From an uncultured Flavobacteriaceae bacterium (GTDB lineage Bacteria > Bacteroidota > Bacteroidia > NS11-12g > UBA955), in assembly GCA_964586595.1 (NCBI GenBank), contig CAZPHB010000001.1, positions 196,852 to 260,851 of the forward strand: DNA of 64,000 bases, read 5' to 3'. Position numbers and translations under genes: made by a program. Positions 10,935 through 49,157 of the stretch are shown here, piece after piece. Below the pieces are notes generated by a model that worked only from the letters and a program-made list of their open reading frames with translations, was not told the DNA's origin and ran no database searches. Every line of letters starts with the position of its first letter. Position 1 is the first letter of the stretch.

Positions 10935-11179
10935 GATTGGGTTTTATTTTCTGCTTATTGAAACAAACGCTGCGTTGAATAGAAACAACGTTCAAAGCTT
11001 GATGTTCGGCAGGCTTTAGAAATCACAGTGTACGGAAGGTGTTGGGTACTTGGGAAATACCTGCCAATCAAACAATGCTGTTTACTTTCACATAACCTTT
11101 TTCGGCATTGTCAACATTGCGGTTTGTCTCAAACCTTCACTGGCTTATTTAAGATGAGTGCAAGGGCAAAAGCAAACGA

Positions 11180-11998
11180 CTAATCCAGCTTTTTCAGCGT
11201 GGTTTTGATGCGGGTAATTTCTTTTTGCAGGTCGAGTACGGTATTGGTCAGCTGATCGCGGTTTGGATTTGGTTCTTCGAATCGGGGATTGATGTAGTGT
11301 ACAAACTTCCAGATTTCAAGCACATCGGCCACCTTTACTTCGTACGGTTGATACTGCGGATTGGTGGAACAAAGCAGCAGCGTACCTTGATCTTCAATCT
11401 GATTGTACACCACTTTAAACACGATACCTTCATCCTGTGTAACCACGATGTAAGGATGACCATTTCGGATGAGGTTCCAGTTTTGCAGGTATTCACCGGT
11501 AACAAAGGCACCATCGCACACAGGCGGCATGCTGTCGCCCGAAATGGGAAACGAACGGTATTTGCGTCCCGGGGTCAGGAATGGGAGGTTGAAGGCCGGC
11601 AGCACCCGGATGAATTCAGGATCGGCGAAGCCATTCACGTATCCGGCCTTGGCTTTTACCGGAACCAGTTCCACCTGATCTTCATTTGACGGGCTAACGG
11701 TTGTGGTCAACACACGCAGTCTGGTGCCGGAAATATCCATATCGTAGCCACGTTCAATTTGCGAGAGGATTCCTTCCGGAAGCGTAGATAAATCTACTTT
11801 AAGCAATTTATCAATAGAGACAGAAAAGAATCCTCCAAGGCGCACCAGGAGGTCAATTCCCGGTTCGGCAATCCCATTTTCATAACTGTTGTAGGCACTC
11901 CGCGTGATGTTCAGCACTCTGGCTACTTCTTCCTGAGAACGCTTTGATCGTTTGCGCAGCAATTTCAGATTGGCGGGCAGTTTATGGTTCTTTTCCAT
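11180..11998 (-). CDS. XRE-family HTH transcriptional regulator fused to an S24 (LexA/UmuD-like) peptidase domain.
   Basis: N-terminal HTH LRKRSKRSQEEVARVLNITRSAYNSYENG. C-terminal …FPISGDSMPP…FKVV… carries the Ser/Lys dyad motifs of S24 autopeptidases. Confidence 0.8.
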   Translation of the reverse strand: MEKNHKLPANLKLLRKRSKRSQEEVARVLNITRSAYNSYENGIAEPGIDLLVRLGGFFSVSIDKLLKVDLSTLPEGILSQIERGYDMDISGTRLRVLTTTVSPSNEDQVELVPVKAKAGYVNGFADPEFIRVLPAFNLPFLTPGRKYRSFPISGDSMPPVCDGAFVTGEYLQNWNLIRNGHPYIVVTQDEGIVFKVVYNQIEDQGTLLLCSTNPQYQPYEVKVADVLEIWKFVHYINPRFEEPNPNRDQLTNTVLDLQKEITRIKTTLKKLD

Positions 11999-12003
11999 GA
12001 TGT

Positions 12004-13419
12004 TCAGTTGATGGGATAAGGCAGTAATTGGTAGGGTTCGGGGTGCATTTGCGCCTGAGTGGTGAAGGCCATGGCGATGGCGCGCAATGAAGGATGATCT
12101 TCAAGCGGGACCAGTTTCTGTTCCAGCTGTTCTGGCTTGGGCAGTTCCTGATGGTTGAGGTATCCGTAGGCCAGAATTCGGCTTTGTTCCACCCAAACAC
12201 ATGAATATTCATCGGGGCTGCGCCCCGGACCTTTCAACACGTATTGAAATGGAGGATGAGCCAATGATTCCAGCAATGACGTCATCCGTTCACGGTGGGT
12301 ATTTTTTTTCACAACTTCAGGTGACCGGCAATAACAGTCTTCCTGGGTGCACTGTGCACTGCTGCTGTGGTTATAGGCTTTGCAGATGGCATTTGTTTTC
12401 AGCAGCTGCAACAAGGCATTTCTGGCGGCTGCCAGGGTGGGAAAGCGCAATAGTGACTGATTGCTGCCCTGCTGCCCGGTAAGAGCCAAAACCGGCATTC
12501 CATCCTGATTGCTGAAGCAACTGATGTTGCATGGATTCGCCTTAAATCTGTCTGCCTTATTGTAAGGCGGCCAATGCTGTCGGATGTAAGCAGATTCGGT
12601 AATCAGGGCCATCAGTTCATTGCCGCAGGGAGTGGTTTTGATGGCACTTACTTCCTGCAATAAAACCTGCCCGCCGCCGCCTTTATAAAAATGCTGCAAT
12701 ACCCGTTTGCGCAGGTTCAGCGCCTTACCAACATACAACACCTTACCGGTATTGTTCATAAACTGATATACCCCGGTAGTTTCGGGAATGTCATCAATGT
12801 CAAGACCGGCAGGCAGGGAAACCTTGTTTTTTTTGGCCGTACCTGCCAGCATTGCATCCACTCCAAGCGTTTCAAACAGTTTATGAAAAAGTATTACCGT
12901 GGCATCTGCATCACCTCCTGCCCGATGTCTGTTTTGAATGGCAATGCCCTTTGAAGCGCAGAGGTTACCCAACGAATACGATTTCAACCCCGGCCAACAA
13001 CGACGCGACAGTCGAACGGTACACAAGGTACGCGTTTTCAAAGGCATCCCGCAGGATGCAAAAGCAGATTTCAGGTGCGCATGATCAAATGCGGCATTGT
13101 GTGCAATAAACACATGCCCCTGGAGCATACGGATGACTTCTTCGGCAACCTCGGAAAATGCTGGCGCGTGTTGGAGCATCTCGTTGTCAATACCTGTAAG
13201 ATTGGTAATGTATTGAGGCACAGGCATTTCCGGGCGAATCAGCCATTCCCGGCTGTCCAACACGGCACTGCCATCGGTAATGCGCACGGCAATTTCAGTG
13301 ATGCATCCCGCTCCCGGACGGCCTCCATTGGTTTCGATATCTACTACGGCGAAGGTCAATTGATTATTTTTTTGACAACCTTGTGCCGTGTAATTTAACT
13401 TATGAACCTGAAACGGCAA
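12004..13419 (-). CDS. DnaQ-like 3'-5' exonuclease domain fused to a GIY-YIG nuclease domain (Cho-like / UvrC-homolog-type). Apparent TTG start.
   Basis: FAVVDIETNGG…HNAAFD… are DEDDh exonuclease motifs. …GVYQFMNNTGKVLYVGKALNLRKR… is a GIY-YIG motif. There is a 5-bp gap to the downstream XRE-S24 gene. Confidence 0.75.
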   Translation of the reverse strand: MPFQVHKLNYTAQGCQKNNQLTFAVVDIETNGGRPGAGCITEIAVRITDGSAVLDSREWLIRPEMPVPQYITNLTGIDNEMLQHAPAFSEVAEEVIRMLQGHVFIAHNAAFDHAHLKSAFASCGMPLKTRTLCTVRLSRRCWPGLKSYSLGNLCASKGIAIQNRHRAGGDADATVILFHKLFETLGVDAMLAGTAKKNKVSLPAGLDIDDIPETTGVYQFMNNTGKVLYVGKALNLRKRVLQHFYKGGGGQVLLQEVSAIKTTPCGNELMALITESAYIRQHWPPYNKADRFKANPCNISCFSNQDGMPVLALTGQQGSNQSLLRFPTLAAARNALLQLLKTNAICKAYNHSSSAQCTQEDCYCRSPEVVKKNTHRERMTSLLESLAHPPFQYVLKGPGRSPDEYSCVWVEQSRILAYGYLNHQELPKPEQLEQKLVPLEDHPSLRAIAMAFTTQAQMHPEPYQLLPYPIN

Positions 13420-13469
13420 AAAAGCCGGACCAAGTTGCCGGAAAAAAATAAAAAGCAGGAAGGGTACGT

Positions 13470-44552: not shown

Positions 44553-45002
44553 TTACCAGGATTCCGGCCCGGGAAGCTCATCCAATTCACTTGGCATGGC
44601 CGTCTTCATGCTCCAAAGCCTGTTTTCTACCCCATTGGTCAACCATAAAAACCGAACACCTGCTTCCATGTTGTATTTCAATGCCTGTTCGACCACTTTC
44701 TGGTTGATGGGAATATGAGGCGCCTTGCACTCAACCAGAATAATAGGCTCGGCTTGTCTGTTCATCACAAGAACATCCGTACGGCGCTTCAATCCATTCA
44801 GGAGCAAAGCGCGTTCCAGGGCAATCCATCCTTCGGGAACTTTAAATTCGTCAAGCAACCAGAATACCACATGTTGCCGCACCCATTCTTCCGGAGTGAG
44901 GGCTACATATTTTTTTCTGATTCTGTCAAAAATATAGTTTTTTTGCCCCTGACTGCGCAGCTGGAACGTATAGGCCGGAAAGCTCAGCATTAACCTCCGC
45001 AA
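44553..45002 (-). CDS. Type I restriction enzyme HsdR N-terminal domain-like protein (PD-(D/E)xK nuclease fold), stand-alone.
   Basis: About 149 aa; …EEWVRQHVVFWLL…DVLVMNRQAEPIILVECKAP… resembles a D…(E/D)xK nuclease core. The family call is from memory. Confidence 0.55.
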   Translation of the reverse strand: MRRLMLSFPAYTFQLRSQGQKNYIFDRIRKKYVALTPEEWVRQHVVFWLLDEFKVPEGWIALERALLLNGLKRRTDVLVMNRQAEPIILVECKAPHIPINQKVVEQALKYNMEAGVRFLWLTNGVENRLWSMKTAMPSELDELPGPESW

Positions 45003-45010
45003 TTTAGTCG

Positions 45011-46033
45011 ATGAGTACCATACCGGTGTTCCAAGTTTATGAGAAAATCCTCGCGGACATCCAAAAACGCGCGTTTGAACCGGTGTACCTGCTGCAAGGG
45101 AAAGAGCCGTTTTTTATAGATAAAATTACCGAAGCGCTGGAAGCAACCGTACTGCAAGAGCACGAAAAAAGCTTCAACCAAACCATTTTCTACGGAAAAG
45201 AAACCAATACCATGAACCTGCTGATGGCGGCACGCAGGTATCCAATGGGCGCTACACATCAGTTGATTGTGGTGAAGGAAGCCCAGCACCTGCAGGACCT
45301 CGAAAAGCTTGAAGCGTACCTGGAAGCACCACAACCTTCCACCATTCTGGTTTTGTGCATTAAATCTGAAAAAAAGCTGGACAAGCGCACCAAGCTGGCA
45401 AAGTTGTTCGGGAAATACTGCATCTTCGACTCAGACCCTCTGAAGGATTTCCAGATGAAACGATGGCTGGACAACTGGACCAGAACCCAGGGAAAAACCT
45501 TGGATGCACTGGCTGCAGAAATGGTTACCGATTATCTGGGTACAGATTTGAGTTTGGTGGTGAATGAATTGAGCAAGCTGTTTATCAATGTTAAAGATGC
45601 CTACATCAGCGCACGACACATTCAGGAACATATTGGACTGAGTAAAGAATTCAACGTTTTTGAATTGCAAAAAGCACTGGGCGCCAGGAACTTTAACAAA
45701 TCGATTCAGATAGCCCACCACCTAAGTTCTGACATGAGTGGGAGGAACCACAGCAGCGTGTTGCTCGGAGCGCTGGTGCAGTATTTCAACAAAGTGCTGC
45801 TCACGCATGGACACAAAGCCAAAGACAAAGATGCGCTGGCGAAAATCCTGGAAGTACATCCATTTTTTGTGCAGGAATACCTTGCCGCAGCCGGTAAATA
45901 CAGTCCGGCGGCTATTGAGAAGGTGCTCGGCTACCTCAAATACTTCGACCTCAGGTTTAAGGGAGTAAACAAGGGCGGTGCTTCAGACAATCAATTGTTC
46001 GTGGAACTCATTGTAAACATTCTGAAAAACTGA
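45011..46033 (+). CDS. holA: DNA polymerase III delta subunit.
   Basis: …VYLLQGKEPFFIDKITEAL… AAA+-like N-terminal domain plus the delta C-terminal helical domain; about 340 aa. Confidence 0.82.
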   Translation: MSTIPVFQVYEKILADIQKRAFEPVYLLQGKEPFFIDKITEALEATVLQEHEKSFNQTIFYGKETNTMNLLMAARRYPMGATHQLIVVKEAQHLQDLEKLEAYLEAPQPSTILVLCIKSEKKLDKRTKLAKLFGKYCIFDSDPLKDFQMKRWLDNWTRTQGKTLDALAAEMVTDYLGTDLSLVVNELSKLFINVKDAYISARHIQEHIGLSKEFNVFELQKALGARNFNKSIQIAHHLSSDMSGRNHSSVLLGALVQYFNKVLLTHGHKAKDKDALAKILEVHPFFVQEYLAAAGKYSPAAIEKVLGYLKYFDLRFKGVNKGGASDNQLFVELIVNILKN

Positions 46034-46103
46034 ATCTTTGGGGTCCATCAATATTTTATCACTATTGTTTAATTTGCACGTCACATCTGATACACATCAT
46101 ACC

Positions 46104-48056
46104 ATGAAGAAACACATACCATTAACCATGTTGTTCCTGGGTGCCTGTGGCCTAACCGCTCAGGTTCCTTTTGGAAACGTTCGTGTGGGAAACCCCTCTG
46201 GACCCGCAGTGAAATCCACTTTTTACGTTACTTCTGATCGGGCCGCTGCCGGTGCAGTGTACAGTTCCGGAAAAACCAATAAAAATCAGGAATACCTGCT
46301 GCGCAGGGGAATTGTTCCTTACGACTTTGTGGAAATAGGCAGCACCTGGTATGACCTGCAGTCAAATGCTTCTGTAGGCAACAGGGTAGTGCTTTATCCT
46401 GATGGAAGCGTTTCAGCAACATGGACCACTAGTGCCGATGAAGGATCTTCCAGCTTTCCAAATCGCGGCAGCGGTTTCAACCATTACAATAAAACAACAT
46501 GGGGGCCTTCTAAAGCCGACCGTATTGAAACTGCCCGCCTCGGCTGGCCAAGCATTGGCGTGCTGTCTGACGGTACCGAATGGATTATGGCCCATGATGC
46601 TGCCCTTGGCGGCTTCGTGCTTTCAAAAAACGGAGGCAAAGGCCAGACAAACTGGACCGGAACTGCTGTATTGAAAGAGAATAACCTGCGCCCACTGTGG
46701 GGACGTGCCACTTCTTCAGGCAACTACATCCACGCCATTTATACGTATGCCGACAGCTCACAGCCCGGTGAACCACGCGCCCCAACACGCAATGGTGTTC
46801 TGGCACCCATGGTGTACAGCCGCTCTACCGATGGTGGTATGACCTGGGACCAGCAAGCCGTGATGCTGCCCGGTTTTGATACCAGCCGCATTACTAATGG
46901 CGGTGGCGATCAATATGCCATTGCCTGCCGCGATTCAATAGTGGCCATCATATTCGGCGGTTTGGCCGATGACGTTTCTGTTTGGAAATCAACCAATAAC
47001 GGAACCGACTGGACCAAAATGATTGCGGATTCTTTCAAATACGCGCCATATAATTCAACCAAACTGATGCTCGACACTCCGTTTACAAACGACGGAACTG
47101 TGCAGGTGTTGATTGACCGCAATGGCCAGGTTCATGCCTTCTGGGCAGGCAGCCGCATGCTCGACGACGACAATACCGATCAGTCGTTCTCTTTCTTCCC
47201 CGGTTTCCAGTTTATTGGTTACTGGAATGAGAACACCAAGCAGAGTCAAATCATCGCCTCCGGTGCCGCTTTTGACCGCGACGGTGACAATGCTAACGCG
47301 CTCAGCGCTGCAACTACCGCGTTCCTGAGCAATGGCCAGGTTCCTTCTACCCTGAATACCGTAGCGCGCCTGGGCAATACTTCTGCCATGAGGCAACCTT
47401 CTCCAACCATCGATGCCGCAGGTAACATCTACGTAACTTTCTCTGTGCCGATTGAAGGTGACCTGAGTGATCTTGATGCGAACTACCGCGACATCGGACT
47501 GGTTTATTCTACCGATGGAGGCGCTACCTGGAAAACCGGCCAAAACCTGACCCAGACCATGATGGTTGAGGACGACTTCGCCAGTGTTGCTCCAGATGCC
47601 GACGACTTCGTGCACATGGTATGGCAACGCGACGGAATCCCCGGAACAAACCTGCAGAACAACTCTACATCTACCAACAACCATGAGCCTGTGAAAAACC
47701 AGATCATGTATGCAGCCATCCCAACTGCCAAGATCTTGTCTGATGCCATTGGACATCAGTGGGGTCTGGGCGTGAACAAAATGAACCAGCCTGCAGAAGT
47801 ATTTGTGGTTTCTCAGAACTATCCTAACCCATTCAGCAGCAAATCTGAAGTACTGGTGTTCATGGATGAACCAGGCACCCTGAAGGTGGACATCATCACC
47901 CTTGATGGTAAAGTTGTTCGCAGCAGCAGCCAGAAAATGATTTCCCGCGGAAACCAAATCGTTCAACTGGACGGAACCGGTTTGAATGCAGGCATGTACC
48001 TGTATCGTTTCACTGCCGGCAAGAACGTGGTGACCAAGAAAATGACCATTCAATAA
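46104..48056 (+). CDS. Secreted BNR/Asp-box repeat protein (sialidase/glycoside-hydrolase-like beta-propeller) with a C-terminal T9SS sorting domain. Start at MKKHIPLT; the track ORF begins at a TTG at 46038.
   Basis: Asp-box motifs STDGGMTWD, STNNGTDWT, STDGGATWK. Signal peptide MKKHIPLTMLFLGACGLTAQ. C-terminus …NYPNPFSSKSEVLVF…GMYLYRFTAGKNVVTKKMTIQ. Confidence 0.7.
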   Translation: MKKHIPLTMLFLGACGLTAQVPFGNVRVGNPSGPAVKSTFYVTSDRAAAGAVYSSGKTNKNQEYLLRRGIVPYDFVEIGSTWYDLQSNASVGNRVVLYPDGSVSATWTTSADEGSSSFPNRGSGFNHYNKTTWGPSKADRIETARLGWPSIGVLSDGTEWIMAHDAALGGFVLSKNGGKGQTNWTGTAVLKENNLRPLWGRATSSGNYIHAIYTYADSSQPGEPRAPTRNGVLAPMVYSRSTDGGMTWDQQAVMLPGFDTSRITNGGGDQYAIACRDSIVAIIFGGLADDVSVWKSTNNGTDWTKMIADSFKYAPYNSTKLMLDTPFTNDGTVQVLIDRNGQVHAFWAGSRMLDDDNTDQSFSFFPGFQFIGYWNENTKQSQIIASGAAFDRDGDNANALSAATTAFLSNGQVPSTLNTVARLGNTSAMRQPSPTIDAAGNIYVTFSVPIEGDLSDLDANYRDIGLVYSTDGGATWKTGQNLTQTMMVEDDFASVAPDADDFVHMVWQRDGIPGTNLQNNSTSTNNHEPVKNQIMYAAIPTAKILSDAIGHQWGLGVNKMNQPAEVFVVSQNYPNPFSSKSEVLVFMDEPGTLKVDIITLDGKVVRSSSQKMISRGNQIVQLDGTGLNAGMYLYRFTAGKNVVTKKMTIQ

Positions 48057-48077
48057 TCAACACCAACCCAAAAACAA

Positions 48078-48109
48078 AAAGCCTCGATAAATCGGGGCTT
48101 TTTGTTTTT
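48078..48109. terminator. Bidirectional terminator between the convergent BNR protein gene and the FAD-oxidoreductase gene.
   Basis: A-rich run, then GCCTCGA-taaa-TCGGGGC (one G·U pair), then TTTTTGTTTTT. Confidence 0.6.
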
Positions 48110-49157
48110 ATGTGTTCCAATACAGCACGGGATCTGTTTCCGGATGCACCGGTTTTCCCTGCAACATACAGGCAATCAACTCCTTCACCAGTAAAGGTCC
48201 CATAGATGCACCCTTACTTCCCCAACCATTGCAGATGTAAAGCTGACGATGCTCCGGATGTGGCCCCATGTACGGGCGGCGGCGCCCAACAGTTGGCCTC
48301 ACTGCCGTTTCATGAGCAAGAATTTCATAGGATAAAGACTGAGGCAATAACTCGCTGAGTTGCTGCAATAAGGTTGCCCTGCCGGATTCCGTGGGTTCCG
48401 GAATCAGGTTCTTCCAGTCATAAGTAGAACCAATACGGAATACGCCCGAACCAAGTGGAATGGAAAAAACCTTCTTTTTTACGATGTATGAAGGAAGTCC
48501 GGAAGGATCCGACAAACGGATGCTCAGCAATTCACCACGCGTAAGGTGAAAAGGTAAAGATTCCAGTGGTTGTTGTTCATAGGCAAATGCACCCTGAGCA
48601 AAAACCACATACTTGGCTTTGATGTCGCGCCAAAACCAATAGCCCTGTTCAAAATGGAGCGCGTTCCAAAGAACGGCTTCGTTACTGAAACGCCCCTGCC
48701 CAGTCCACAATGCGCGATGATACCTACATAAAGCAGCCATATCCAATCGGCCGGACTGACGTGTCAAGGCTCCGCTTCGGCCATGCAATTCCGGAAGTTC
48801 TTCCATCCATTCCAGCCACTGCGGGCCTAATTGTTCCGCGGCGCGTGTCCAGTGTTGTCGATCTTGAGCCGTATCTGCCAAAAACGCCATGGGCATGGCA
48901 TGAAAAAACACCTGACCTGTTGCTGCTTCCAGTGCACGGTAGTAATGCGCTGAAGCTGGAAACAGTTCCGCAGCACGCCAGGTTAATCCGCCGGTTCTTG
49001 GCACCAAAGGATGCATCAGCCCGGCAGCAACCCGAGAAGATGTGGGCGAGATCTCCGGATCTGCAACATGCACTTCCAGGCCTTGCAGCAACAGTTCACG
49101 GGCAAGGAGTGTGCCGGCAATCCCTTGGCCGGCCACCAAAACATCAACGCAGGCCAT
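48108..49157 (-). CDS. FAD-dependent oxidoreductase of the DAO/glycine-oxidase fold; candidate stand-alone MnmC oxidase domain.
   Basis: VDVLVAGQGIAGTLLARELLLQGLEVHVAD is a dinucleotide-binding motif. About 349 aa, similar in length and fold to the C-terminal FAD domain of MnmC. Confidence 0.65.
   Translation of the reverse strand: MACVDVLVAGQGIAGTLLARELLLQGLEVHVADPEISPTSSRVAAGLMHPLVPRTGGLTWRAAELFPASAHYYRALEAATGQVFFHAMPMAFLADTAQDRQHWTRAAEQLGPQWLEWMEELPELHGRSGALTRQSGRLDMAALCRYHRALWTGQGRFSNEAVLWNALHFEQGYWFWRDIKAKYVVFAQGAFAYEQQPLESLPFHLTRGELLSIRLSDPSGLPSYIVKKKVFSIPLGSGVFRIGSTYDWKNLIPEPTESGRATLLQQLSELLPQSLSYEILAHETAVRPTVGRRRPYMGPHPEHRQLYICNGWGSKGASMGPLLVKELIACMLQGKPVHPETDPVLYWNT

What the first reader, a model, noticed from the sequence alone, without database searches (positions are those of the whole stretch)
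11180..13419. Candidate Bacteroidota SOS-type operon: Cho-like DnaQ-exo/GIY-YIG nuclease followed by a LexA-like XRE-S24 repressor
A 471-aa protein combines a DEDDh 3'-5' exonuclease domain (FAVVDIETNG…HNAAFD) with a GIY-YIG nuclease motif (GVYQF…VLYVGKA). That is the same architecture as the LexA-controlled Cho/UvrC-homolog proteins of Actinobacteria and Firmicutes. Five base pairs downstream, on the same strand, is an HTH-XRE protein carrying a complete S24 self-cleaving peptidase domain (GDSM…K). This is the LexA/CI architecture, although the protein is longer than canonical LexA. A repair nuclease sitting with an autoproteolytic repressor points to a damage-inducible unit. uvrA, recQ and a photolyase are elsewhere in the window but not adjacent.
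Basis: partly seen in the sequence, partly recalled or inferred. Interest (0 to 1): 0.5.

Follow-up and report, generated by a model that had tools for sequence, protein, structure and literature searches.

The report
Bacteroidota SOS repressor with repair nuclease
This two-gene unit pairs a DNA-repair nuclease with the self-cleaving "non-canonical LexA" repressor that runs the DNA-damage response in Bacteroidota. That system was published in 2021, so this is a new lineage-specific example and not a new kind of system.

Summary
Both ORFs are real, co-oriented on the minus strand and 5 nt apart. The nuclease starts at TTG 13359 (451 aa), not 13419: the first 20 reported codons are promoter and operator DNA.

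The 272-aa HTH_3 + S24 protein belongs to the "non-canonical LexA" family of Bacteroidetes (Sanchez-Osuna et al. 2021, PMC8565304). Its C-terminal 160 residues align without gaps at 49% identity to the EMSA/RT-qPCR-validated Pontibacter actiniarum regulator. Ala118-Gly119, Ser156, Lys195 and the family-specific terminal helix are all conserved. That paper already lists a "GIY-YIG exonuclease (COG0847)" among genes predicted to be under this regulator.

The published operators (CTAA-N5-TTAG, GGA-N5-TCC) are absent here. The window's clade has a different recognition helix (ITRSAYNSYEN) and a 19-bp dyad, TTGWYAA-N5-TTRWCAA. A matrix trained only on distant repressor-first loci puts its best hit in all 64 kb (17.7 bits; next 8.8) at 13360-13378, between the -7 box and the nuclease start.

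uvrA, recQ and the photolyase have no such site. Nothing points to a prophage. Novelty is modest: a new member with a shifted operator and a nuclease-repressor operon.

The parts
13417..13420 (-). -33 promoter element TTTG (Bacteroidota type)
   Evidence: Sequence read. It lies 19 nt upstream of the -7 box and is conserved in L002-L004, L085, L081 and L082. Promoter function is inferred from the known Bacteroidetes consensus TTTG-N19-21-TAnnTTTG (my own knowledge).
13390..13397 (-). -7 promoter box TAAATTAC
   Evidence: A TAAWTTRM box is found 37-45 nt upstream of the nuclease start in all 11 exo->rep loci examined. It is conserved even where flanking DNA is unrelated (L004, L085).
13360..13378 (-). 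Predicted operator TTGTCAA-AAAAA-TAATCAA (19-bp, 7-5-7 dyad), directly abutting the start codon
   Evidence: It is the top hit of the whole 64-kb window for a matrix trained only on repressor-first loci (17.7 bits; next best 8.8). It is also the top hit for the Bacteroidales-derived matrix (9.2 bits, 0.2 expected per window). An equivalent site lies at -18 to -26 in 10 of 11 exo->rep loci. Binding has not been tested.
12004..13359 (-). Exonuclease/GIY-YIG nuclease gene (451 aa, corrected start TTG 13359)
   Evidence: The AlphaFold model has mean pLDDT 89.5.
12886..13347 (-). DEDDh 3'-5' exonuclease domain (residues 5-158)
   Evidence: Pfam RNase_T 6.9e-27. D7, E9, D92, H145 and D150 are invariant in 46 homologs. 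Best structural match is the S. aureus DinG exonuclease domain 8zef, rmsd 1.3 A, 33% identity.
12559..12774 (-). UvrC-type GIY-YIG nuclease domain (residues 196-267)
   Evidence: Pfam GIY-YIG 8.5e-7. TIGR00194 uvrC residues 5-87, 5e-17. UvrC N-terminal domain 1yd6, E 2e-7. G196, Y198, Y209, G211, R219, E248, E255 and N267 are invariant.
12328..12384 (-). Cys cluster CKAYNHSSSAQCTQEDCYC (residues 326-344), the likely counterpart of UvrC's Cys-rich middle region
   Evidence: C326 and C337 are conserved in at least 90% of homologs. Relatives carry the precomputed Pfam hit PF27096 UvrC_M. The NCBIfam Cho model aligns through this region. Its function is inferred.
12007..12327 (-). C-terminal domain of unknown function (residues 345-451) with conserved GR...E...G.GY
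   Evidence: G379, R380 and E384 are invariant or nearly so. The model is confident here. No Pfam or PDB sequence match was found.
11180..11998 (-). Non-canonical LexA-type repressor gene (272 aa)
11804..11968 (-). N-terminal penta-helical HTH_3 DNA-binding domain (residues 11-65); recognition helix ITRSAYNSYEN
   Evidence: Pfam HTH_3 3.7e-14. Model pLDDT is about 92 with five helices. Structural matches are ImmR, CylR2 and SinR. The helix variant is clade-specific.
11642..11647 (-). Predicted self-cleavage site Ala118-Gly119
   Evidence: Aligns with the Ala-Gly of the published family alignment. Invariant in 40 homologs. Coordinates verified. Cleavage has not been tested.
11312..11575 (-). 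S24 peptidase domain (residues 142-229) with Ser156 (11531-11533) and Lys195 (11414-11416)
   Evidence: Pfam Peptidase_S24 2.1e-6. S156 and K195 are invariant. Superposes on the LexA C-terminal domain at rmsd 2.2-3.5 A over about 94 residues.
11186..11266 (-). Family-specific C-terminal alpha-helix (residues 245-271)
   Evidence: Predicted helix H245-271. VLDLQKEITRIK aligns with VLDLQKEVQKLK of the P. actiniarum regulator. The feature is described in PMC8565304.

Best explanation
This is a chromosomal, autoregulated DNA-damage (SOS-type) operon of an uncultured freshwater Bacteroidia bacterium.

Proposed mechanism:
1. One promoter (-33 TTTG, -7 TAAATTAC) drives the nuclease gene and then, 5 nt later, the repressor gene.
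2. The repressor is a non-canonical LexA: a phage-CI-like HTH joined to a LexA-like S24 self-cleaving domain plus a terminal helix.
3. As a dimer it binds the 19-bp dyad TTGTCAA-N5-TAATCAA, which fills the short leader between the -7 box and the start codon. This keeps both genes low.
4. After DNA damage, RecA-ssDNA filaments stimulate self-cleavage at Ala118-Gly119 by Ser156/Lys195. The DNA-binding domain separates from the dimerisation domain and the operon is derepressed.
5. The induced nuclease nicks damaged DNA with its UvrC/Cho-type GIY-YIG domain. Its fused DEDDh domain then resects 3'->5' from the nick.
6. Newly made repressor resets the switch.

Shown here: the gene pair, the domains, conservation of catalytic residues, homology to validated regulators, and a conserved, statistically exceptional operator-like site. 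Inferred: binding, RecA-dependent cleavage, damage induction, and the nuclease's substrate.
For: Homology. The repressor's C-terminal half is 49% identical, ungapped over 160 aa, to P. actiniarum WP_025606010.1 (E 7e-57 in a small database). It is 40-44% identical to other CTAA-cluster members and about 30% to the GGA cluster. EMSA and mitomycin-C RT-qPCR for that reference protein are reported in PMC8565304.

Domains and residues. HTH_3 plus S24. A118, G119, S156 and K195 are invariant in 40 homologs. The model shows an HTH, a disordered linker, an S24 barrel and a terminal helix, and its top PDB matches are LexA, UmuD' and a lambda-186 repressor.

Operator. 78 TTGATTA-N5-TAATCAA sites occur in 45 Bacteroidales-type promoters. 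The clade-specific TTGWYAA-N5-TTRWCAA sites occur whether the nuclease or the repressor is the first gene. The independently trained matrix gives 17.7 bits at 13360-13378, the best hit in 64 kb. The same position is occupied in 10 of 11 exo->rep loci.

Nuclease-repressor linkage. The two genes are adjacent in two different orders: exo->rep in the window's clade, including different genomic contexts (L165-L167), and rep->exo in Bacteroidales-type loci. The paper predicts the nuclease family as a regulon member. The Pedobacter ortholog has CTAATTTTATTAG at -42, and the Arachidicoccus ortholog follows dnaE2.

SOS context of the family. A divergent Y-family polymerase lies upstream of the repressor in 48 of 52 Bacteroidales-type loci.

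Nuclease. All DEDDh and GIY-YIG catalytic residues are invariant, and the model is confident.
Against: The published operators are absent: there are 0 exact CTAA-N5-TTAG in the window, and GGA-N5-TCC occurs only at chance level.

The proposed operator is only half-palindromic. The left half matches the clade consensus, while the right half (TTGATTA) differs at 3 of 7 positions. One relative (L081) has only a 3-bit site.

No second regulated promoter was found in 64 kb (uvrA 1.2, recQ -3.6, photolyase -2.0 bits). A genome-wide SOS role is therefore unproven here.

RecA-dependent cleavage has not been demonstrated for any member of this family; the paper says so itself.

The nuclease's last ~107 residues (345-451) match no known domain; a search with the last 177 residues found nothing. 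A UvrB-dependent, Cho-like mode of action is therefore conjecture.
Confidence: 0.8

Rival explanations
1. The pair is a local, self-contained two-gene module, not part of a genome-wide SOS network. The repressor would control only its own operon, so the nuclease is its sole effector in this lineage. This would be a contracted regulon, as the 2021 paper describes for some clades.
For: The only strong operator-like site in 64 kb is at the operon's own promoter. In 134 kb of clade loci, strong sites lie almost only in exo/rep promoters. The window's clade lacks the divergent Y-family polymerase that accompanies the repressor elsewhere: 0 of 16 loci versus 48 of 52. The paper notes that regulon size varies and is very small in some clades.
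Against: Only about 1-2% of a genome was examined. recA, dinB/umuC, imuAB-dnaE2, ssb and other usual targets are not in the window, so their promoters could not be checked.
Confidence: 0.35
2. The S24 protein is a prophage or mobile-element CI-type lysogeny repressor, and the nuclease is element cargo.
For: The N-terminal domain is of the phage-repressor HTH_3 type. PHROG transcriptional-repressor families hit at 1e-14. NCBIfam's best hit for the repressor is the phage RstR subfamily, below its cutoff. The family is thought to descend from phage repressors.
Against: Flanks are housekeeping genes: HMGL-like, S9 peptidase, MscS-like channel, beta-lactamase-fold protein. The same synteny holds in relatives whose repressor is 82-84% identical. 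There is no integrase or phage structural gene nearby, and GC content is flat. The best matches among 50,697 phage genomes are only 26-36% identical, whereas chromosomal homologs across Bacteroidia orders are 50-70% identical.
Confidence: 0.03
3. The pair is an anti-phage defence or toxin-antitoxin-like system, in which an HTH-peptidase regulator holds a nuclease effector in check.
For: PADLOC gives domain-level hits: the exonuclease domain to candidate PDC-S48 (6e-37), and the HTH to capH-like models at 1e-4. The nuclease diverges much faster than the repressor (67% vs 97% in L004; 43% vs 82% in L081). Such a pattern is sometimes seen in conflict systems.
Against: The hits cover single generic domains only, and no defence system shares the full architecture. 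The nuclease has a UvrC-type GIY-YIG domain, and its relatives have a UvrC middle region. Orthologs sit under the SOS operator or beside dnaE2. The repressor family pairs with translesion polymerases elsewhere.
Confidence: 0.05

Closest known systems
Non-canonical LexA proteins of Bacteroidetes (Sanchez-Osuna, Cortes, Lee, Smith, Barbe, Erill, NAR 2021; PMC8565304), CTAA-N5-TTAG cluster, e.g. Pontibacter actiniarum WP_025606010.1
   Same: Same architecture: HTH_3, linker with Ala-Gly, S24 with a Ser/Lys dyad, and a terminal helix. Identity is 49% over the C-terminal 160 residues. Both are restricted to Bacteroidota and both have a dyad operator with a 5-bp spacer in their own promoter. A GIY-YIG/DnaQ-type exonuclease is predicted as a regulated gene.
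   Different: The operator half-sites are TTGTCAA / TTGATWA, not CTAA, and the recognition helix ITRSAYNSYEN is clade-specific. The repressor is the second gene of an operon led by the nuclease. No wider regulon is visible in the sequence available. The host is an uncultured freshwater lineage that the paper did not sample.
Elizabethkingia anophelis WP_078407279.1 and the 'divergent palindrome' paralogs (Table S10 of PMC8565304)
   Same: These are family members whose promoters lack CTAA-N5-TTAG but carry another dyad with a 5-bp spacer. One of them (TTAC-N5-GTAA) was validated by EMSA. Motif drift within the family is therefore documented.
   Different: Those cases were linked to paralogy in Weeksellaceae and paired with a divergent error-prone polymerase. 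Here the divergent motif belongs to what appears to be a single-copy regulator paired with a nuclease.
Cho+Exo and Cho-like+Exo subfamilies of UvrC-like GIY-YIG nucleases (Dunin-Horkawicz et al. 2006, PMC1564403); NCBIfam PRK07883 'DEDD exonuclease domain-containing protein' of Actinobacteria
   Same: The domain order matches: epsilon-type DEDDh exonuclease, then a UvrC/Cho-type GIY-YIG domain, then a Cys-containing region. The proposed logic also matches: nick 3' of the lesion, then resect 3'->5' through it.
   Different: The protein is shorter (451 aa, against model lengths of 563-642). It scores far below the family cutoffs (221 bits against 495; Cho PRK10545 47.5 against 367). Its C-terminal domain is neither a recognisable UvrB-binding domain nor a Cho-CTD. 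Those subfamilies were described from Actinobacteria and Betaproteobacteria, not Bacteroidota.
Canonical LexA (COG1974) and lambda CI
   Same: The S24 self-cleaving C-terminal domain fold matches LexA (rmsd 2.2-3.5 A). The logic of an autoregulated repressor is also shared.
   Different: The N-terminal domain is an all-helical HTH_3 like CI, not LexA's winged helix. There is an extra terminal helix, and the protein is 272 aa against about 200. It is not in a prophage, unlike CI.

Membership tests
Non-canonical LexA (Bacteroidetes SOS regulator, PMC8565304) | N-terminal multi-helical HTH_3 (PF01381) domain instead of a winged helix | tested here: met
   HTH_3 3.7e-14, residues 11-65. Five-helix domain with pLDDT about 92. 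Structural matches are ImmR, CylR2 and SinR.
Non-canonical LexA (Bacteroidetes SOS regulator, PMC8565304) | C-terminal S24 domain with a scissile Ala-Gly bond and a Ser-Lys dyad | tested here: met
   Peptidase_S24 2.1e-6. A118-G119, S156 and K195 align with the published alignment, are invariant in 40 homologs, and their coordinates were verified.
Non-canonical LexA (Bacteroidetes SOS regulator, PMC8565304) | Terminal alpha-helix after the S24 domain | tested here: met
   Helix 245-271 in the model. VLDLQKEITRIK aligns with VLDLQKEVQKLK.
Non-canonical LexA (Bacteroidetes SOS regulator, PMC8565304) | Significant sequence similarity to validated members, closer than to LexA, CI or UmuD | tested here: met
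   49% identity and E 7e-57 to WP_025606010.1; 30% and E 1.5e-18 to WP_075324850.1; E > 0.3 to the E. coli LexA and lambda CI C-terminal domains.
Non-canonical LexA (Bacteroidetes SOS regulator, PMC8565304) | Own promoter carries CTAA-N5-TTAG or GGA-N5-TCC | tested here: not met
   There are 0 exact CTAA-N5-TTAG in the window, and none with one mismatch near the promoter. GGA-N5-TCC occurs at chance level and not in the promoter. The paper accepts members with other dyads (Table S10), so this feature is typical but not strictly required.
Non-canonical LexA (Bacteroidetes SOS regulator, PMC8565304) | Own promoter carries a dyad operator with a 5-bp spacer (autoregulation) | tested here: met
   TTGTCAA-AAAAA-TAATCAA at 13360-13378. 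It scores 17.7 bits with an independently trained matrix and is the best hit of the window. It is conserved in position in relatives. This is computational evidence only.
Non-canonical LexA (Bacteroidetes SOS regulator, PMC8565304) | Controls a multi-gene network of DNA-repair and mutagenesis genes | tested here: inconclusive
   Only the exo-rep operon has a site in the 64 kb. uvrA, recQ and the photolyase do not. The rest of the genome was not available.
Non-canonical LexA (Bacteroidetes SOS regulator, PMC8565304) | Induced by DNA damage; specific DNA binding; RecA-stimulated self-cleavage | not testable with these tools
   These need RT-qPCR or RNA-seq, EMSA and cleavage assays. Cleavage has not been shown for any family member.
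Canonical LexA (COG1974) | Winged-helix LexA DNA-binding domain; matches LexA family models | tested here: not met
   There is no LexA_DNA_bind Pfam hit and no LexA NCBIfam hit. The N-terminal domain is HTH_3.
Prophage CI-type lysogeny repressor | Encoded within a prophage or mobile element; close homologs in phage genomes | tested here: not met
   Housekeeping flanks and conserved synteny. Best phage matches are 26-36% identical.
Cho+Exo / Cho-like+Exo UvrC-like nucleases (PMC1564403) | N-terminal epsilon-type DEDDh exonuclease fused to a UvrC/Cho-type GIY-YIG domain | tested here: met
   RNase_T 6.9e-27 and GIY-YIG 8.5e-7. uvrC TIGR00194 N-terminal region 5e-17. 1yd6 E 2e-7. Catalytic residues are invariant.
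Cho+Exo / Cho-like+Exo UvrC-like nucleases (PMC1564403) | Cys-rich (C4) region after the GIY-YIG domain | tested here: inconclusive
   The window protein has four Cys at 326-344, but only C326 and C337 are conserved in at least 90% of homologs. UvrC_M (PF27096) is on record for relatives, not for this protein.
Cho+Exo / Cho-like+Exo UvrC-like nucleases (PMC1564403) | C-terminal Cho-CTD or UvrB-binding (UVR) domain | tested here: not met
   There is no Pfam or PDB sequence match for the last 177 residues. Scores are far below the NCBIfam cutoffs for PRK07883 and Cho. A fold-level comparison of this domain alone was not possible.

The most novel reading that the evidence does not exclude
In this freshwater Bacteroidia clade the non-canonical LexA may have been re-specified and re-wired. 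A changed recognition helix (ITRSAYNSYEN instead of MKRSTLSGYEN) would have co-evolved with new operator half-sites (TTGTCAA/TTGATWA instead of TTGATTA or CTAA). The core partner would also have switched, from a translesion polymerase to an Exo-GIY-YIG nuclease fused into the same operon. The result would be a minimal SOS circuit of a nuclease plus its own repressor. If so, the family offers a natural series for reading helix-operator co-variation directly from genomes, and the nuclease, not mutagenic polymerases, would be the conserved core SOS effector in this lineage.
Probability: 0.35. Interest if true: 0.45.

Novelty: new member of a known kind. Interest (0 to 1): 0.3.

Why it matters
The finding extends the recently discovered Bacteroidota SOS system to an abundant, uncultured freshwater lineage. 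It shows that the regulator's operator and recognition helix have drifted together. It also shows the regulator physically fused into an operon with the Exo-GIY-YIG nuclease, which the original study flagged only as a predicted target.

That gives a simple, testable minimal circuit: one promoter, one operator, two genes. It is also a handle on the biochemically uncharacterised Bacteroidota Exo-GIY-YIG nuclease. It does not change the overall picture of the SOS response.

Tried and rejected
1. Published operators. Exact and 1-mismatch searches for CTAA-N5-TTAG, GGA-N5-TCC and TTAC-N5-GTAA found nothing at any relevant promoter.

2. GTCAA-N12-TTGAC inverted repeat. I first read this repeat, and the TCAATTGA palindrome at the start codon, as the operator. 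I rejected both because the spacing changes (a 1-nt indel) in L002 and L003.

3. Direct RTCAA repeats at 11-12-nt spacing. I considered these, but the 7-5-7 dyad explains more loci. It also accounts for sites in the opposite orientation (L006, L082) and at different promoter positions.

4. None was found. The 8.8-bit hit upstream of holA has only one good half-site and was treated as chance.

5. Prophage reading: rejected.

6. Defence-system reading: only generic domain hits.

7. Classifying the nuclease's C-terminal domain. Pfam and PDB sequence searches gave nothing. The Foldseek list was saturated by the exonuclease domain. The afdb50 library was unavailable.

8. Regulon scope in relatives. 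A scan of 134 kb of clade loci found only a few isolated 11-15-bit sites with no consistent gene association.
Full report
**Observation.** The two minus-strand ORFs are present as reported: 12004-13419 (471 aa as listed) and 11180-11998 (272 aa). The junction is AAC TGA acatc ATG, a 5-nt gap. Pfam finds RNase_T/DEDDh (6.9e-27) and GIY-YIG (8.5e-7) in the first protein, and HTH_3 (3.7e-14) and Peptidase_S24 (2.1e-6) in the second. NCBIfam places the first protein nearest the actinobacterial PRK07883 "DEDD exonuclease domain-containing protein" models, UvrC's N-terminus and Cho. All of these score well below the family cutoffs.

One correction is needed. An alignment with close relatives shows a 1-nt indel inside the supposed first 20 codons, and non-coding-type conservation up to a TTG at 13359. 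Homologs and gene calls are 451-455 aa. The nuclease is therefore 451 aa (13359-12004). The TTG at 13419 lies in the -33 promoter element.

**What the repressor is.** A literature search found Sanchez-Osuna et al. 2021 (PMC8565304). That study reports that Bacteroidetes lack canonical LexA. Instead they use S24 repressors with a CI-like HTH_3 N-terminal domain and an extra terminal helix. These bind CTAA-N5-TTAG or GGA-N5-TCC and control SOS genes. Two proteins were validated by EMSA and mitomycin-C RT-qPCR.

I took reference sequences from the paper's Supplementary Data S5. The window protein's residues 106-265 align without gaps at 49% identity to the validated P. actiniarum regulator. Identity is 40-44% to other CTAA-cluster members and about 30% to the GGA cluster. 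Similarity to the E. coli LexA and lambda CI C-terminal domains is negligible.

The scissile Ala118-Gly119, Ser156 and Lys195 are invariant in 40 homologs (coordinates checked). An AlphaFold model shows a confident five-helix HTH, a disordered linker, an S24 beta-domain and a helix at 245-271. The C-terminal domain superposes on LexA at 2.2-3.5 A, and UmuD' chains also appear among the fold hits. The N-terminal domain matches ImmR/CylR2/SinR-type HTHs.

The family is large (5,463 hits at E <= 1e-5), and all named hits are from Bacteroidota. It is conserved at 50-70% identity across orders.

**What the nuclease is.** All DEDDh residues (D7, E9, D92, H145, D150) and GIY-YIG residues (G196, Y198, Y209, G211, R219, E248/E255, N267) are invariant in 46 homologs. 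The model is confident, with mean pLDDT 89.5. The exonuclease domain is closest to that of S. aureus DinG (rmsd 1.3 A). The GIY-YIG domain matches the UvrC N-terminal domain (1yd6, E 2e-7).

A Cys cluster follows, and relatives carry Pfam UvrC_M. No known domain was found in the C-terminal region: a search with the last 177 residues gave nothing. The domain order matches the "Cho+Exo / Cho-like+Exo" subfamilies of Dunin-Horkawicz et al. 2006. For those, a nick-then-resect mechanism was proposed (PMC1564403). The defining C-terminal domain could not be confirmed here.

[quoted passage not shown] I checked orthologs directly. Pedobacter faecalis has a perfect CTAATTTTATTAG 42 nt upstream. The Arachidicoccus gene follows dnaE2 by 10 nt.

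**Operator.** The published motifs are absent from the window. Comparative analysis of 171 related loci resolved this.

In Bacteroidales-type relatives the recognition helix is MKRSTLSGYEN. Their promoters carry one or two copies of TTGATTA-N5-TAATCAA, with 78 sites in 45 loci.

The window's clade comprises all relatives down to about 64% identity, 22 loci in total. It has a different helix, ITRSAYNSYEN. Its promoters carry TTGWYAA-N5-TTRWCAA. This holds whether the first gene is the nuclease or the repressor, and the sites occur in either orientation and at different promoter positions.

I trained a matrix only on the repressor-first loci, which are at most 68% identical to the window and have a different gene order. 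Its best hit in the whole 64-kb window is at 13360-13378 (17.7 bits; runner-up 8.8). The Bacteroidales matrix also ranks this site first, at 9.2 bits with 0.2 expected. The same position, 18-26 nt before the start codon and about 10 nt after a TAAWTTRM -7 box, is occupied in 10 of 11 exo->rep loci.

Window coordinates are: -33 TTTG 13420-13417, a 19-nt spacer, -7 TAAATTAC 13397-13390, operator 13378-13360, start TTG 13359. The site is only half-palindromic, which suggests a weaker operator. Binding is inferred, not shown.

**Linkage and context.**
- The nuclease and repressor are adjacent in two gene orders: exo->rep, only in the window's clade and in at least three different genomic neighbourhoods; and rep->exo in Bacteroidales-type loci.
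- L005 and L165 share flanking genes but differ in whether the nuclease is present.
- In Bacteroidales-type loci the repressor is divergently paired with a Y-family polymerase in 48 of 52 cases. In the window's clade this is 0 of 16. The paper validated that divergent arrangement in Elizabethkingia.
- The window's flanks are housekeeping genes, with synteny kept in relatives whose repressor is 82-84% identical.
- Phage genomes contain only 26-36% identical matches. PADLOC gives only generic domain hits.
- uvrA, recQ and photolyase promoters score 1.2, -3.6 and -2.0 bits. No wider regulon is visible in 134 kb of clade loci.

**Conclusion.** The object is a member of an already published system: non-canonical LexA plus its predicted Exo-GIY-YIG target. 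The lineage-specific points not described in the paper are the operon fusion, the shifted helix/operator pair and the absence of a polymerase partner. Whether the repressor here is a global SOS regulator or controls only this operon remains open.

Noticed in passing
window 13360-13419: The first 20 codons of the reported 471-aa ORF are not coding. They overlap the -33 element, the -7 box and the operator. A 1-nt indel in L002 and L003 breaks the frame there.
   Followed up: yes
window 12004-13359 vs 11180-11998; L004, L081, L082: The nuclease diverges far faster than the adjacent repressor: 67% vs 97% identity in L004, and 43% vs 82% in L081. This could reflect relaxed or diversifying selection, or recombinational replacement of the nuclease gene.
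   Followed up: partly
L165:5260-5433 and L166:5371-5586: A small ORF (57-71 aa) overlaps the repressor's stop codon by 4 nt in two distant exo->rep loci. The two ORFs share a C-terminal motif, (Q/K)EI(M/L)xKMGL. No equivalent ORF lies downstream of the repressor in the window (10935-11179).
   Followed up: partly
L028:3714-3907, L035:3724-3904, L004:2527-2565: Short tandem repeats with 7-8-nt (and 14-25-nt) units, whose sequence differs between genomes, lie just upstream of the repressor or nuclease promoter in many relatives. None is present in the window's promoter.
   Followed up: partly
L028:4937-6280: In a Bacteroidales-type locus the gene directly downstream of the repressor encodes a 447-aa protein with a weak Peptidase_M48 match. 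Only one locus was checked.
   Followed up: no
window 44923-44941: The second-best operator-matrix hit (8.8 bits, CTGTCAAAAATATAGTTTT) lies in the intergenic region upstream of holA (45011-46033). It has only one good half-site and is probably chance.
   Followed up: partly
window 48042-48060: ATGACCATTCAATAATCAA scores 7.0-7.4 bits with both matrices. It straddles the 3' end of a T9SS-sorted protein gene (46038-48056), just before a convergent FAD-oxidoreductase gene (48108-49157), so it is not a promoter position.
   Followed up: partly
L011, L013-L016, L053 (upstream of the repressor gene): Other clades, with helices IKRTTLSGYEN or IKRTSLTGYEK, show yet another dyad of the same 7-5-7 geometry, e.g. 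ATGTCGG-GAATT-AAGACAT and ATGTCGA-TATTT-TTGACAT. This suggests repeated re-specification of half-sites within one family.
   Followed up: no
L025-L080, L092-L164 (records labelled Bacteroidales, Rikenellaceae, Lentimicrobiaceae): Many environmental MAGs labelled Bacteroidales encode this regulator, with strong operators and a divergent Y-family polymerase. The 2021 study, based on complete genomes, reported the family absent from the order Bacteroidales. The MAG taxonomy labels were not verified.
   Followed up: no
L171:1-3892 (Arachidicoccus, CP015971.1): The nuclease ortholog lies 10 nt downstream of a DnaE2-type polymerase gene and is followed by a phage-type integrase on the opposite strand.
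   Followed up: no
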